Of a DNA stretch of 30,480 bases, positions 781 through 30,480 are shown in pieces (position 1 is the stretch's first letter; the number at the start of each line of letters is the position of its first letter). The position numbers and the translations under genes were made by a program. The notes below the pieces were generated by a model. The model made no database searches, was not told the origin of the DNA, and saw only the letters and a list, made by a program, of their open reading frames with translations. The stretch lies in IMG/VR virus record IMGVR_UViG_2744054854_000009; one strand, given 5' to 3'. Source of the DNA: a virus (lineage: Duplodnaviria > Heunggongvirae > Uroviricota > Caudoviricetes).

Positions 781-1935
781 CTATGATTCGGTTTCTGCAA
801 TCCATTCAGGTATTTTTGCTTCCAGTTCCAGCCGCGTTTTAAATCCACTGCTGTCAATAGTGTGGCTTGCCTTGGCAATTATCCAGTCCTGGCCGTCAAT
901 GACGTCTTTGAATTCCGTTACCGTTCCGTGCATCTCCGGATACAGATCCGCGCGCCCGTAAGCCAGGGTTAAAGTGAACTCAGCTGCTCCTCGCTGGAGT
1001 TGTTGCCATTTTGCAGCTGCTGCACGTTGTGCGGCCATCTCACTGCTGTACGTAGTGCGGAGTACAAAAACGTTACCATCTTCACCGGCAATATAGTCCC
1101 CTTCCCGGCTGCTGCTACGCGGCTTTTTGTCTGCGGTTTTCTTCCGTTTTTTAACAGTGACCTTTTTCTTTTTTCCGAAATCCATATCAAGCCAGTACGC
1201 CTGCACGCCAGTGTATGCGTCACGATCTGCAATCCGGAAAGAATGTCGATCTCCGCTGCTGCGCGTGATGGAAAACTCCGGTAACGCTCTGCCGTTTGCA
1301 CTGACGCCACCACCAGGCAGGATGAACAGCAGGTAACCATTTTTCACAGTTGCAATAGCGCCCAGCATTTCCGCCATGCGCGTCAGAAACGACATGTCAC
1401 TTTCTTGTGTCTGATCTGCATGGTCGATCTCGGCGGACATCAGTTGCTCTGAGATGAGAGGTTTTAACTTGTACCGGTGAGCTATAGCAGAGACGATGCG
1501 CTCAACTGTAACGTCATGCCACGACACCTCCCGTTTGACGTTAAACTCATCGCGGAAATCTGCACTTCTGGCCGTGATCTCGATACGGTCCGGCGGCCCT
1601 GAGTGCGCAATTTCATCCACGATGAAAATCCCTTTGTGAACCAGTTTTTCTCCCTGCCAGCCTATCGCTACTGACAATTCTGCACCACGCGGGGGTAACT
1701 CAATATCTCCCTGGCTATCATCAACAGTGATGGTCAGCTCATCAGCATTAAAGCCCCTGTTATCTGTTAATTCTAATGAGACCAGGTTCCCATCCAGCAT
1801 GATCAACGCCTTGCCGCCAAGCATGACGTTAAACGCAGGTACACGTGACAGGTCGCCCGGATAATTTTTGAATTTCTCAGCACCCGCATTCAGCAGGCTT
1901 TTTGCGCTCTCTATTGCGTCAGTTGTCAGTGCCAT
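781..1935 (-). CDS. D: tail protein D (late control gene D family)
   Basis: Long ORF with gpD-like sequence and internal Lys-rich stretch. Start chosen at ATG 1935 (MALTTD) with GAGGAG SD, giving 384 aa against about 387 aa for P2 gpD; track ORF extends to 2016. Confidence 0.85.
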   Translation of the reverse strand: MALTTDAIESAKSLLNAGAEKFKNYPGDLSRVPAFNVMLGGKALIMLDGNLVSLELTDNRGFNADELTITVDDSQGDIELPPRGAELSVAIGWQGEKLVHKGIFIVDEIAHSGPPDRIEITARSADFRDEFNVKREVSWHDVTVERIVSAIAHRYKLKPLISEQLMSAEIDHADQTQESDMSFLTRMAEMLGAIATVKNGYLLFILPGGGVSANGRALPEFSITRSSGDRHSFRIADRDAYTGVQAYWLDMDFGKKKKVTVKKRKKTADKKPRSSSREGDYIAGEDGNVFVLRTTYSSEMAAQRAAAAKWQQLQRGAAEFTLTLAYGRADLYPEMHGTVTEFKDVIDGQDWIIAKASHTIDSSGFKTRLELEAKIPEWIAETES

Positions 1936-7744: not shown

Positions 7745-8313
7745 TTAAACCCCTTCATGTTCCCTTCTTCTTGAAGGGAACTTCTTGTAAAGCGTCGATA
7801 TTCCGACATCAAAAATAATAGCCACCTGCTGCCGTTTTTCCCCTGCGGCGATCAGCCTTCCCGCCTGTTCCCATTGCTGCTTTGTCAGTTTTGGCCGCCT
7901 CCCGCCTATTCTTCCTTCTGCGCGGGCAGCCGCCAAACCGGCGCGGGTACGCTCAACGATCAATTCTCTCTCCATTTCTGCCAGCGCCCCCATGACGTGA
8001 AAGAAAAAGCGCCCATGGGTGTTGAGGTATCAATGCTGTCTGTCAGGCTGCGGAAGTTAACACCGCGATTGCGTAGCTCTTCGATCATTGTCACCAGGTG
8101 GCGCATGCTCCGCCCAAGACGATCAAGCTTCCAGACAACCAGCGTATCACCCTCCGATAAGGTCCGTAATAAACGCTTAAGCCCCGGCCTTTCCGCTTTA
8201 GTGCCGCTTATTTTGTCTTCAAATATTTGTTCACATCCTGCGCTTACCAGCGCATTTCTTTGCAGCGCAGTGTTCTGGTCATTTGTTGACACCCTTACAT
8301 AGCCGATCAGCAT
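7745..8313 (-). pseudogene. Hin/Gin/Cin-family serine DNA invertase, reading frame broken by a 1-nt loss in a homopolymer
   Basis: N-terminal ORF (7960..8313) has the catalytic serine motif GYVRVSTNDQ; C-terminal ORF (7745..7993) has the HTH part MGALAEMERELIVERT...GRRPKLT. Frames meet at an A5 tract (8004-8008, T5 on coding strand); one more T would restore the conserved ...GAFFFHVMGALAEMEREL... read-through. Confidence 0.8.
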
Positions 8314-8351: not shown

Positions 8352-8624
8352 TTGTATCGAGCATCGTCATTTCTGGCTGTACTGCAGGTCTGGTACCGCA
8401 CCGTCAGAAGTAACCATGTCTTCCGGAAAACGTTGGTTTCAGAAGTCAATACCTACATCAATACCCATCAGTGGCCTGGCAAAGCTGCTATTGGTCGTCT
8501 GAAAGGCGAGGAACTGGCGCAATATAATTCGTGGCTGGATTATCTGGACGCACTGGAACTGGTCGATACTTCCTGTGCGCCAGATATTGAATGGCCTACG
8601 CCTCCGGCAGTTCAGGCCAGCTAA
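8352..8624 (+). pseudogene. 5'-truncated remnant of an alternative tail fibre assembly gene (tfa', convergent with G)
   Basis: No ATG in the ORF (track start is TTG); C-terminal half ...YNSWLDYLDALELVDTSCAPDIEWPTPP matches the conserved Tfa C-terminal motif (W..Y...VDTS.APDIEWP) also seen at the end of G; no alternative tail-fibre C-terminus lies between it and the invertase. Confidence 0.6.
8421..8446. other. candidate degenerate invertase crossover site (hix/gix-like)
   Basis: ttccggAAAACG-TT-GGTTTCagaagt: quasi-palindrome around a central TT, opposite orientation to the site at 9471-9496. Confidence 0.3.
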
Positions 8625-9021
8625 CATGGTTGGGGTCGGTTTTCACATCAACCAATTTCACAGTGTTCTTATATGTCAGCCACGCCGACAGATTTGTCCT
8701 GTTGGTGTCACTGATTTCTCCCAGCATTAATTCTGTACGCCAGTCGAGCATCATCGCATCAGCATGAGCCAACAGCCGCTGACGTTCATTCTCAGCAGTC
8801 GCAATCAACTCTTCCTTGGTCGGAGGTGGAATATCAACCCAACCAGGCATCCCATTCACTGACCCCAGCTTTTTACCGGAGGGAGCTGCACCACAAAATT
8901 GGAGGTGAAGCACATGGGTAATTTCAATCAAATCATCAGGCCAGTTTCCCGCACGCTCGTAGGCTTCTTTGCGGTCGTCATCATAGAAACCAACAGTTGA
9001 CGCACTAAATAAAATTTTCAT
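8596..9021 (-). CDS. G: tail fibre assembly protein
   Basis: ATG at 9021 (MKILFSASTVGFYDDD...) 2 nt after the H-frame stop; C-terminus ...VDVKTDPNHVSWPELPEA has the Tfa-type motif; track ORF extends to 9096. Confidence 0.85.
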   Translation of the reverse strand: MKILFSASTVGFYDDDRKEAYERAGNWPDDLIEITHVLHLQFCGAAPSGKKLGSVNGMPGWVDIPPPTKEELIATAENERQRLLAHADAMMLDWRTELMLGEISDTNRTNLSAWLTYKNTVKLVDVKTDPNHVSWPELPEA

Positions 9022-9022
9022 A

Positions 9023-9346
9023 TCAATACCCCAGTGCGAACCAGAATCCGCCACTATTTGAGTTAAAATCAGAATCTTGCGCGACATGAAAACCAAATCC
9101 AGTTCTTACCACTCCGATAGCTGAACAACCAAACCCCTTTGTTGGCCGTGCCGTAGCGTCCAGTGTACACATCACGGCAACAGTAGCTGTCGGGTGAGTT
9201 ATAGTAAATGTGACGTTTGTAGTTTGCCCTGCGTTGGTTGGGCCAACTTTACCCCACTGCAAAATCAGTCCACCTGGTAGATACTGATATCCGATCGCGT
9301 TTTTCAATATAGACGTTTGTAGTTTGCCCTGCGTTGGTTGGGCCAA
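9023..9346 (-). pseudogene. H: out-of-frame C-terminal portion of tail fibre gene H, separated from the main ORF by a 100-bp duplication
   Basis: ORF repeats ...LKNAIGYQYLPGGLILQWGKVGPTNAGQTTNV (encoded by the repeat) then continues TFTITHPTATVAV...GGFWFALGY to a stop abutting G; has no independent start signal. Confidence 0.6.
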
Positions 9347-9409
9347 CTTTACCCCACTGCAAAATCAGTCCACCTGGTAGATACTGATATCCGATCGCGT
9401 TTTTCAATA
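9212..9409. repeat. perfect tandem direct repeat, 2 x 98 bp with period 100 bp, inside tail fibre gene H
   Basis: 9212-9309 is identical to 9312-9409 (read directly); period is not a multiple of 3, so the H frame shifts and stops at 9249-9251. Confidence 0.9.
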
Positions 9410-10091
9410 CTCCAAACGAACCCATGTCGGGGATTTGGTTTGTACCCGCACCCACATCACACAGTGCTGCCGATTTAATTCCAAGGTTTTGGAGAACCTG
9501 ATTTACCAGCCCAGCATCAACCATTTCTTTTAATGCATTAGCTATCAGTGGGTATTGCTTGTGCGGATTTGCAGCAGCTACGTGCTTTTTCATCACATCA
9601 TCGGCGTATGCCTTAACTTCAATAACGGCATCATCAACATATTTACGGGTTGCCAGCACCACTGACGGATCGATTTTCAGCGTCACAGCCTCGGTGCTGC
9701 TGACGATCAGGATCACGCGAATAACCTGCACGCGCCCGCTACCTTCCTGCAACTGCGGTTTATAAGTCTCTGCACAGTTGGCAACCGCAATCATATCGCC
9801 GTCTTTATCAAACAGGCCAATCTCACGGATCCACCATCCGCCCGCGTCTTCCGGTATAACCTGTTCCGCAATGATCTGATTGGTGTTTACCGGGTCAACA
9901 GTCAGCATGTTCAGCTGCGCGCGGCGCAGCTCATGCACGAGGGCGGTTTGGGCCGGATTGGGTGTCGGCAGCGCGCCGTTACCATCACCGACGGCCATTT
10001 GGGTGATCTCAACCTGCGCACCCAATGCCGTGGCGTTTGCCAGTTTTGCCGCCCCGATATTGGTTAACAGGGCAAAATATTTAGTCGCCAC
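9249..10091 (-). CDS. H: tail fibre protein H, truncated form (280 aa) ending inside the duplicated segment
   Basis: N-terminal region ATKYFALLTNIGAAKLANATALG...MAVGDGNGALP...YKPQLQEGSGR resembles P2 gpH N-terminus; GTG start at 10091 with GGAGA SD (track start is TTG at 10112); premature stop caused by the 100-bp duplication. Confidence 0.8.
   Translation of the reverse strand: MATKYFALLTNIGAAKLANATALGAQVEITQMAVGDGNGALPTPNPAQTALVHELRRAQLNMLTVDPVNTNQIIAEQVIPEDAGGWWIREIGLFDKDGDMIAVANCAETYKPQLQEGSGRVQVIRVILIVSSTEAVTLKIDPSVVLATRKYVDDAVIEVKAYADDVMKKHVAAANPHKQYPLIANALKEMVDAGLVNQVLQNLGIKSAALCDVGAGTNQIPDMGSFGVLKNAIGYQYLPGGLILQWGKVGPTNAGQTTNVYIEKRDRISVSTRWTDFAVG
9471..9496. other. candidate invertase crossover site (gix/hix-like) inside H
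   Basis: Coding-strand sequence TTCTCCAAAACC-TT-GGAATTAAATCG; left half matches the recalled conserved Hin/Gin half-site TTATCCAAAACC at 11 of 12 positions; encodes H residues VLQNLGIK just upstream of the C-terminal region. Confidence 0.4.
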
Positions 10092-29499: not shown

Positions 29500-30480
29500 A
29501 TGTCGATTAAGAAGCTCGATGATGGTCGCTACATGGTGGACATTAGACCGCGCGGGGCAGCAGGACGCCGCATCCGCAAGACGTTTGACAGAAAGGCAGA
29601 AGCTACCGCGTTTGAGCAATACACGATAGCGAACGCCAGCCAAAAAGAATGGGCTGGTAAGCGCGCCGACCGGCGGCCTTTAAGTGAGTTGCTCGATGCC
29701 TGGTGGCGGTATCACGGGCAAAACCATGAAAACGGCAAAAAGGAATTCAATCACCTTTTGAAAACAATAAGTGGCCTCGGCGATCCCGCCGTTAGCCGGT
29801 TAAGCAAAAGGGATTTAATGGATTACCGCTCAAGCCGTTTGAATGCCGGGATCAAGGCATCAACGATTAATCGCGAGATGTACCGATTATCCGGCATGTT
29901 TACGAAGTTAATACAGATAGAGGAATTTAGCGGGCAACACCCTGTTAACGGGCTTCCACCACTGGCGGAAGAAAACCCGGAAATGACATTCCTGGAGCGG
30001 GAAGAGATCAACAGTTTGCTGAGCGTGCTGGAGGGGGATTATCTGTTAGTTGCCCTACTGTGCCTGAGCACCGGCGGAAGATGGTCAGAGGTCGCCACGC
30101 TTAAGCGGTCGAATATCGTTAATTGCCGCGTCACGTTCCTGAAGACCAAGAACGGGAAAAAGCGAACGGTGCCGATCTCTGAAGAGCTGGAAAACAAGGT
30201 GAAAAAAGAGGCCAGCGGGAAGCTGTTCAAAGTGGATTATGAAAGGTTCTGCAAGATACTGCGGGCGGTGAAGCCGGATATTCCGGAAAACCAGGCAACA
30301 CACATCCTGCGACACACCTTTGCAAGCCATTTCATGATGAACGGCGGGAATATTATCGCACTGCAACAGATTCTGGGACATGCGAATATTCAGCAAACGA
30401 TGGTCTATGCGCACCTGTCGCCTGACTACCTGCAAAACGCGGTTACACTGAATCCATTGCAGGGAGGAATTGCGGCATAA
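29500..30480 (+). CDS. int: tyrosine site-specific integrase (P2 Int-like)
   Basis: ATG 29500 with GGAGGG SD (track start is GTG at 29473); C-terminal catalytic motifs HILRHTFASHFMMNGG...LGHANIQQTMVYAHL; stop codon is the last triplet of the window. Confidence 0.9.
   Translation: MSIKKLDDGRYMVDIRPRGAAGRRIRKTFDRKAEATAFEQYTIANASQKEWAGKRADRRPLSELLDAWWRYHGQNHENGKKEFNHLLKTISGLGDPAVSRLSKRDLMDYRSSRLNAGIKASTINREMYRLSGMFTKLIQIEEFSGQHPVNGLPPLAEENPEMTFLEREEINSLLSVLEGDYLLVALLCLSTGGRWSEVATLKRSNIVNCRVTFLKTKNGKKRTVPISEELENKVKKEASGKLFKVDYERFCKILRAVKPDIPENQATHILRHTFASHFMMNGGNIIALQQILGHANIQQTMVYAHLSPDYLQNAVTLNPLQGGIAA

What the first reader, a model, noticed from the sequence alone, without database searches (positions are those of the whole stretch)
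9212..9409. Perfect 100-bp-period tandem duplication breaks tail fibre gene H
Positions 9212-9309 and 9312-9409 are identical (98 bp, 2-bp junction). Because the period is not a multiple of three, H stops at 9249 after 280 codons, and the remaining 62-codon C-terminal region (ending at 9023, abutting G) is left out of frame. Removing one copy gives a continuous tail fibre of about 329 aa. A perfect tandem repeat is unstable, so this is either a recent inactivating duplication, a reversible on/off switch by duplication and deletion, or an assembly artifact.
Basis: seen in the sequence. Interest (0 to 1): 0.6.

Follow-up and report, generated by a model that had tools for sequence, protein, structure and literature searches.

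The report
Assembly join artefact in tail-fibre gene
The perfect 100-bp-period repeat that appears to break a prophage tail-fibre gene is most likely two overlapping assembly pieces joined end to end, because the source record has an unknown base (N) exactly at the joint and near-identical prophages elsewhere carry one copy.

Summary
Positions 9212-9309 and 9312-9409 are identical, with a 2-nt spacer. The repeat stops tail-fibre gene H (minus strand) after 280 codons.

The biology is probably not real. The window comes from E. coli assembly GCA_001640145.1, a 4.6-Mb "contig". In that record the spacer base at window 9311 is an N. It is the only non-ACGT base in the 28.5 kb of the record I could read. 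If that N were T, the structure would be 99 nt + 1 nt + 99 nt.

A Logan contig (SRR27009823) matches the window over 19,119 nt with one mismatch and has a single copy. It encodes an intact 322-aa H. Four other independent contigs are also single-copy. The two-copy arrangement was found in no other collection searched.

The end points share no microhomology, and the 2-nt spacer (T plus the N) matches neither flank. That is unusual for a genuine E. coli duplication. It is expected when two contigs that overlap by about k-1 bases or one read length are scaffolded with a 1-N gap, an artefact class already described (PMC8081667).

Verdict: not a real feature (about 0.88). The main alternative is a genuine, very recent and unstable knockout (about 0.09). 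Interest is low.

The parts
9212..9309 (.). Copy 1 of the 98-nt repeat. On the artefact reading this is the start of the contig that continues to lower coordinates.
   Evidence: Identical to 9312-9409. Matches the single copy in L002-L006 and L020 at 100%.
9310..9311 (.). 2-nt spacer, the joint. It reads TA in the window, but 9311 is N in source record LWDC01000001.1. The T at 9310 matches neither flank of the single-copy allele.
   Evidence: this is the only non-ACGT base in L007 and L030; if 9311 were T, the repeat would be 99 nt (9211-9309 = 9311-9409).
9312..9409 (.). Copy 2 of the 98-nt repeat. On the artefact reading this is the end of the contig that comes from higher coordinates.
9249..10091 (-). 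Tail-fibre gene H as it reads in the window: 280 codons plus stop. The last 13 codons are frameshifted read-through of copy 1.
   Evidence: called as a 280-aa product in the source record. Pfam Phage_tail_fib N-terminal domain, E = 2.8e-64.
9023..9211 (-). The last 62 codons plus stop of H, left out of frame in the window. This is the end of the Gp53-like_C receptor-binding domain.
   Evidence: Pfam Gp53-like_C on residues 238-322 of the repaired protein. RefSeq names the 107-aa leftover ORF (9023-9346) a gp53-like domain-containing protein.
8596..9021 (-). Tail-fibre assembly chaperone (P2 G / lambda Tfa type), 141 aa, intact.
   Evidence: Pfam Caudo_TAP, E = 7e-27. The same 141-aa protein follows the intact 322-aa H in L005/L020; in L006 it follows a 201-aa C-terminal H fragment that runs off the contig end.
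9479..9496 (+). Single hix/gix-like crossover half-site pair (TTCC AA GGTTTTGGAGAA). It lies at the boundary between the constant and variable parts of H. This is context, not part of the repeat.
   Evidence: Identity to the E. coli PCP06171 prophage stops at 9481. Only one such site exists in the window. The resemblance to hix/gix is from memory of those consensus sequences.
7745..8313 (-). Hin/Gin/Cin-type serine invertase gene split by a frameshift into 117-aa and 82-aa ORFs. This is context.
   Evidence: Pfam Resolvase and HTH_7 hits on the two ORFs. The same 117-aa ORF is called in relatives.

Best explanation
The tandem repeat is an assembly artefact, not a feature of the E. coli chromosome.

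**Proposed mechanism.** Two contigs that abut inside gene H each kept the same terminal 98-99 nt. That length corresponds to k-1 for a de Bruijn graph built with k about 99-100, or to about one 100-nt read. A scaffolding or finishing step joined them end to end with a single N instead of merging the overlap. The result was deposited as one 4.6-Mb "contig". When the window was prepared, the N was written as a base (A on the + strand), so the joint looked like an ordinary 2-nt junction.

**Expected true sequence.** It has one copy and encodes an intact 322-aa P2-type tail fibre with a Gp53-like C-terminal tip.

**Shown.**
- The N sits at the joint.
- Close relatives are single-copy.
- The two-copy allele appears nowhere else I could search.
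- The end points lack microhomology.

**Inferred.**
- Which assembler and k were used.
- That the N marks a contig join.
For: 1. **Source and the N.** The leftover 107-aa ORF is on record on one contig only, GCA_001640145.1 LWDC01000001.1 (4,615,684 nt; E. coli). That record equals the window over 19,346 nt except for one position, window 9311, where it has N. Together, L007 and L030 give 28.5 kb of the record read directly. That N is the only non-ACGT base in it, and it is flanked by the 98-nt duplicate. A lone N landing by chance in a 2-nt spacer within about 20 kb has odds of about 1e-4.
2. **Possible 99-nt repeat.** With N = T the repeat becomes 99 + 1 + 99 nt. The other spacer base, T at 9310, matches neither flank, as a stray contig-end base would.
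3. **Single copy in a near-identical contig.** L005/L020 (Logan SRR27009823, 30,886-nt contig) aligns to the window over 19,119 nt with one mismatch (at 1753). It lacks exactly the 100 nt and encodes a 322-aa H.
4. **Single copy in four more contigs.** L002, L003 and L004 (ENA metagenome scaffolds) and L006 (Logan SRR28428819) are 99.4-100% identical around the site and single-copy.
5. **Two-copy allele not found elsewhere.** The arrangement with any 2-nt spacer is absent from genome contigs and metagenome contigs. The exact TA-spacer junction as the window reads it is also absent from viral contigs. The NN pattern does match L007, so the search can find it.
6. **End points.** There is no microhomology at either end point, and the 2-nt spacer matches neither flank. 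From established knowledge, RecA-independent duplications in E. coli normally form at short direct repeats, and E. coli lacks Ku/LigD end joining.
7. **Known artefact class.** Rhie et al. [quoted passage not shown]
8. **Intact surroundings.** Apart from the 100 nt, the window matches the L020 contig at all but one of 19,119 aligned bases, and the genes called on the two are the same apart from H. The lesion is isolated rather than part of general decay.
Against: - I could not see reads, the assembly method or the rest of the record. Whether other isolated Ns with duplicated flanks occur in this assembly is untested.
- No repeat elsewhere explains why contigs would break here. The 98-mer region has no similar sequence in 5,426 complete E. 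coli genomes.
- The single-copy contigs come from other samples, not demonstrably from the same strain. They show the ancestral state, not the state in this strain.
- A real duplication junction could also attract a low-confidence base call.
Confidence: 0.88

Rival explanations
1. This is a genuine, very recent tandem duplication of 98 nt plus 2 filler nucleotides in this one strain. It truncates H after residue 267, adds 13 frameshifted residues and removes the end of the receptor-binding tip, so any virions made would lack a working fibre.
For: The sequence as deposited carries it. Apart from it, the 19.1 kb shared with L020 contains one substitution, which would fit an event only generations old. 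The prophage already carries one decayed module, a frameshifted invertase with a lost partner recombination site.
Against: An N sits exactly at the junction. The end points have no microhomology, and there is filler, which is atypical for E. coli. The allele is seen in one assembly only. The copy length of 98-99 nt matches common assembler k or read lengths. Perfect 101-bp tandem repeats are lost by RecA-independent deletion in E. coli (PMC7145654), so such an allele would be short-lived.
Confidence: 0.09
2. This is a reversible on/off switch of tail-fibre production by gain and loss of one repeat copy (phase variation by duplication and deletion).
For: Only the off-to-on direction is plausible. 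Loss of one copy of a 98-nt perfect tandem repeat restores the 322-aa frame exactly, and such deletions are frequent in E. coli (PMC7145654).
Against: Nothing would drive re-formation of the same duplication. There is no microhomology at the end points. There is no short-unit repeat tract. None of the single-copy relatives shows any intermediate or alternative copy number. All the arguments for the artefact also apply.
Confidence: 0.02
3. The duplication was introduced when the window was prepared and is not in any public record.
For: The window differs from the record at the joint, with a base where the record has N.
Against: The public record itself carries both copies.
Confidence: 0.01

Closest known systems
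False 'homotype' duplication at contig boundaries (Rhie et al. 2021, PMC8081667)
   Same: Two identical copies in tandem, roughly one read (or k-1) long, with a gap character between them. It is created when overlapping contig ends are scaffolded rather than merged, and it produces a false gene disruption.
   Different: That work described large vertebrate long-read assemblies. Here the case is a bacterial draft, the 'gap' is a single N, and the whole thing was deposited as one contig. The assembler is unknown.
Engineered 101-bp tandem-repeat deletion reporters in E. coli (pSTL57 tetA series; PMC7145654)
   Same: A tandem duplication of about 100 bp inside a gene gives a null allele that reverts by precise loss of one copy.
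   Different: Those reporters are engineered and proven by selection. Here the existence of the duplication in DNA is itself doubtful.
P2 gpH / Mu S-type tail fibres with Din-family (Hin/Gin/Cin/Pin) invertible C-terminal segments
   Same: The gene has a constant N-terminal collar-fibre domain, a swappable C-terminal tip, a downstream chaperone, an adjacent serine invertase gene and a hix/gix-like site at the constant/variable boundary.
   Different: This is the genomic context, not an explanation of the direct repeat. In this prophage the inversion module is decayed: the invertase is frameshifted, only one site remains and only a fragment of the alternative chaperone is left.

Membership tests
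Assembly artefact: unmerged contig overlap joined by scaffolding | Two identical copies directly in tandem | tested here: met
   98 of 98 nt identical, period 100.
Assembly artefact: unmerged contig overlap joined by scaffolding | Gap or ambiguity character between the copies in the deposited record | tested here: met
   N at window 9311 in LWDC01000001.1. It is the only non-ACGT base in 28.5 kb read directly.
Assembly artefact: unmerged contig overlap joined by scaffolding | Copy length equals k-1 of the assembler or about one read | tested here: inconclusive
   98 nt (99 if N = T) fits k = 99-100 or 100-nt reads. The assembly method of GCA_001640145.1 could not be read with these tools.
Assembly artefact: unmerged contig overlap joined by scaffolding | No reads span the joint; depth per copy is half that of the flanks | not testable with these tools
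   No access to raw reads.
Assembly artefact: unmerged contig overlap joined by scaffolding | Independent assemblies of the same sequence carry one copy | tested here: met
   L002, L003, L004, L005/L020 and L006 are all single-copy. The two-copy pattern is absent elsewhere.
Genuine slippage or template-switch tandem duplication | Short direct repeat (microhomology) at the two end points | tested here: not met
   0 nt of microhomology on either side. The 2-nt spacer (T plus the record's N) matches neither flank.
Genuine slippage or template-switch tandem duplication | Junction supported by sequence reads or by a second isolate | tested here: not met
   The junction is found only in the one record, where it contains N. 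Reads are not available.
Phase-variable contingency locus | A mechanism for frequent change in both directions (simple-sequence tract or invertible element acting on the gene) | tested here: not met
   There is no short-unit tract. The duplication end points have no homology to re-form it. The invertase is frameshifted and only one crossover site is left.
P2-type tail fibre H (collar-fibre N-terminus plus Gp53-like tip) | Phage_tail_fib N-terminal domain and Gp53-like_C domain in one polypeptide, followed by a Caudo_TAP chaperone gene | tested here: met
   This holds for the single-copy reconstruction: PF12571 at 2.8e-64, PF21882 at 1.9e-14 and PF02413 at 7e-27. The reconstruction is identical to P0121, which is on record.

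The most novel reading that the evidence does not exclude
The duplication is real in this strain. It is a freshly arisen, microhomology-independent 98+2-nt tandem duplication that silences the tail fibre of an otherwise intact P2-like prophage and reverts at high frequency by precise loss of one copy. That would be an unstable, one-way-revertible off state.
Probability: 0.09. Interest if true: 0.25.

Novelty: not a real feature. Interest (0 to 1): 0.05.

Why it matters
The finding has practical rather than biological value. A single N, written out as an ordinary base, turned an unmerged contig overlap into what looks like a gene-breaking duplication. RefSeq now carries a 107-aa 'gp53-like domain-containing protein' that exists only because of it.

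Scans for pseudogenes, phase variation or recent duplications should check ambiguity characters in the original record first. They should also be suspicious of perfect tandem repeats of about 98-127 nt, which match assembler k values or read lengths.

If the duplication were real after all, it would be an ordinary, short-lived knockout of one prophage gene.

Tried and rejected
- **Invertase-related origin.** I asked whether the repeat was tied to the tail-fibre inversion system, for example duplicated crossover sites. It is not. The only hix/gix-like site is at 9479-9496, outside the repeat, and no inverted partner exists.
- **Natural in-frame two-copy homologues.** I looked for H homologues that carry both copies in frame. 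None were found. The closest homologues are 322 aa, and the best 120 hits show no internal repeat of this segment.
- **The truncated 280-aa protein.** I looked it up with Y or X at the joint. It is not on record, probably because the N gives an ambiguous residue.
- **Junction searches.** The first searches used the window's TA spacer. They could not have matched the record's N, so I repeated them with NN in genome contigs and metagenome contigs.
- **More of the source record.** I tried to read further to find other N joins. This gave 9.2 kb of left flank with no further N. The attempt on the right side did not return the source record, and lookups with the ogr and repressor proteins returned only other genomes.
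- **Literature.** A search for the assembly accession found nothing.
- **A repeat that would break contigs here.** I looked for a second genomic copy of the 98-mer region. Complete E. coli genomes have none.

Full report
**1. The observation**

Window 9212-9309 and 9312-9409 are identical over 98 nt and are separated by two bases that read TA in the window. Tandem Repeats Finder reports period 100, 2.0 copies, 100% matches and score 396. It finds no other long tandem repeat in the 30.5 kb. An exact 98-nt repeat cannot be a chance match.

On the minus strand the repeat lies inside a tail-fibre gene. From the GTG at 10091 the frame runs 280 codons to a stop at 9251-9249, inside copy 1. The last 62 codons plus stop (9211-9023) are in another frame. 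Deleting 100 nt restores one frame.

**2. Context**

- **Element and host site.** The window is a P2-like prophage that runs from ogr (487-735) to the integrase (ends at 30480). It is 98.8% identical over 94% of its first 25 kb to a prophage of E. coli PCP06171. In related genomes and in the source record it lies between fieF and cpxP.
- **The fibre protein.** The repaired H has a Phage_tail_fib N-terminal domain (E = 2.8e-64) and a Gp53-like_C tip on residues 238-322 (E = 1.9e-14).
- **The chaperone.** The next gene (9021-8596) is a Caudo_TAP chaperone.
- **A decayed inversion module.**
  - Beyond the chaperone lie a fragment of a second chaperone on the other strand (8352-8624) and a Hin/Gin-type serine invertase gene split by a frameshift (8313-7745).
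  - Relatives carry a full invertible tail-fibre segment at this position.
  - Identity to the PCP06171 prophage stops at 9481. A hix/gix-like sequence sits at 9479-9496 and is the only one in the window.
  - The direct repeat lies inside the variable part and has no relation to the crossover site.

**3. Relatives are single-copy**

- **Closest proteins.** A protein search with the repaired H found 322-aa proteins at 98% identity (P0001, P0002) and an 85% E. coli homologue, also 322 aa.
- **Metagenome contigs.** Their contigs (L002, L003, L004) are 100% identical to the window from 10700 down to 9312. They are 99.4-99.5% identical from 9309 onwards, and the 98-nt segment occurs once.
- **Logan contigs.**
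  - The exact chaperone protein led to two Logan contigs.
  - L005/L020 (SRR27009823, 30,886 nt) aligns to the window over 19,119 nt with one mismatch (at 1753). It lacks exactly the 100 nt.
  - L006 is also single-copy.
- **The repaired protein.** The exact repaired 322-aa protein is on record from the L005/L020 contig (P0121).

**4. The source record**

The leftover 107-aa ORF (9346-9023) is on record on a single contig, NCBI GCA_001640145.1 LWDC01000001.1 (4,615,684 nt), from Escherichia coli. RefSeq calls it a 'gp53-like domain-containing protein'.

That record (L007) equals the window over 19,346 nt, duplication included, except at one position. Where the window has A at 9311 (T on the minus strand), the record has N.

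A second fetch (L030) added 9.2 kb of chromosomal flank. Over the 28.5 kb of the record read directly, this N is the only non-ACGT character, and it is flanked by the 98-nt duplicate. If the N stood for T, the repeat would be 99 nt with a 1-nt spacer. The other spacer base (T at 9310) matches neither the base that follows the unit in the single-copy allele (C) nor the one that precedes it (G).

**5. Searches for the two-copy allele elsewhere**

- The joint with the window's TA spacer was absent from genome contigs, viral contigs and metagenome contigs.
- Those searches could not have matched an N, so I repeated them with NN at the spacer. Genome contigs and metagenome contigs gave nothing, while the same pattern does hit L007.
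- The two-copy allele is therefore known from one assembly only.

**6. Mechanism**

The simplest account is that two contigs meeting inside H each kept the same terminal 98-99 nt. That length is k-1 for a de Bruijn graph with k about 99-100, or about one 100-nt read. A scaffolding or finishing step then joined them with a single N. From my own knowledge, short runs of N are treated by the archive as ambiguous bases rather than gaps. That would explain why a scaffold can appear as one 4.6-Mb 'contig'.

Rhie et al. [quoted passage not shown]

A biological origin is less likely on mechanistic grounds. The end points share no microhomology, and the 2-nt spacer matches neither flank. By established knowledge, RecA-independent duplications in E. 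coli form at short direct repeats, and E. coli lacks Ku/LigD end joining.

If the duplication were real it would also be short-lived. Tandem 101-bp repeats are lost by RecA-independent deletion in E. coli (PMC7145654). That instability fits the near-absence of other differences from L020. A pure artefact fits that observation equally well.

**7. What is not shown**

- I could not see reads, the stated assembly method or the rest of the record.
- I do not know why contigs would break at this position. Complete E. coli genomes contain no second copy of this segment.
- The single-copy contigs come from other samples, so they establish the ancestral state, not the state in this strain.
- For these reasons I leave about 0.09 for a genuine recent knockout and about 0.02 for a switch.

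**8. Verdict**

The feature is most likely not real, with confidence 0.88. It is not novel and its interest is low. The useful lesson is to check ambiguity characters in the source record before interpreting perfect tandem repeats of roughly read or k-mer length.

Noticed in passing
window 7745-8313 (minus strand), lesion near 8010-8016: The Hin/Gin/Cin-type invertase gene is split into a 117-aa Resolvase ORF and an 82-aa ORF carrying the rest of the Resolvase domain plus HTH_7. The reading ...TPMG|AFSFTSW..., where Gin-type enzymes have TPMGRFFFHVMGALAEME (from memory), suggests one G lost from ATGGGG. The same 117-aa ORF is called in several relatives (L004, L005, L006, L023, L028, L029), so the frameshift is old and widespread in this prophage lineage.
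   Followed up: partly
window 8352-8624 (+ strand): This is the C-terminal fragment of a second Caudo_TAP tail-fibre chaperone on the opposite strand (Pfam E = 3.2e-15, profile positions 72-130). It is the remnant of the alternative half of an invertible tail-fibre segment. Relatives such as L009, L013, L022 and L027 still carry both alternative tips (Collar and Gp53-like_C) and both chaperones.
   Followed up: partly
window 9479-9496: A hix/gix-like sequence (TTCC AA GGTTTTGGAGAA) lies exactly where identity to the E. coli PCP06171 prophage stops (9481). That point is the constant/variable boundary of H. No inverted partner exists in the window, so the segment appears locked in one orientation.
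   Followed up: partly
window 9023-9480 compared with complete E. coli genomes: The DNA of this particular Gp53-like tip has no match in 5,426 complete E. coli genomes, even in distant mode. The rest of the prophage is common. The tip is known only from a few metagenome and Logan contigs, so it is a rare receptor-binding cassette on a common P2-like backbone.
   Followed up: partly
L020 (Logan SRR27009823 contig, 30,886 nt) compared with the window: By extrapolating the alignment offsets, the Logan contig appears to span almost exactly the prophage plus roughly 130-370 nt on each side. Its ends would then lie close to the attachment sites. That may mean both occupied and empty sites, or an excised form, were present in that sample.
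   Followed up: no
window 1753: This is the only substitution between the window and the SRR27009823 contig over 19.1 kb (G in the window, T in the contig). It lies inside the gpD-like gene (781-1935, minus strand). The window's version of the 384-aa protein is nevertheless common, listed in 323 blocks of the collection.
   Followed up: no
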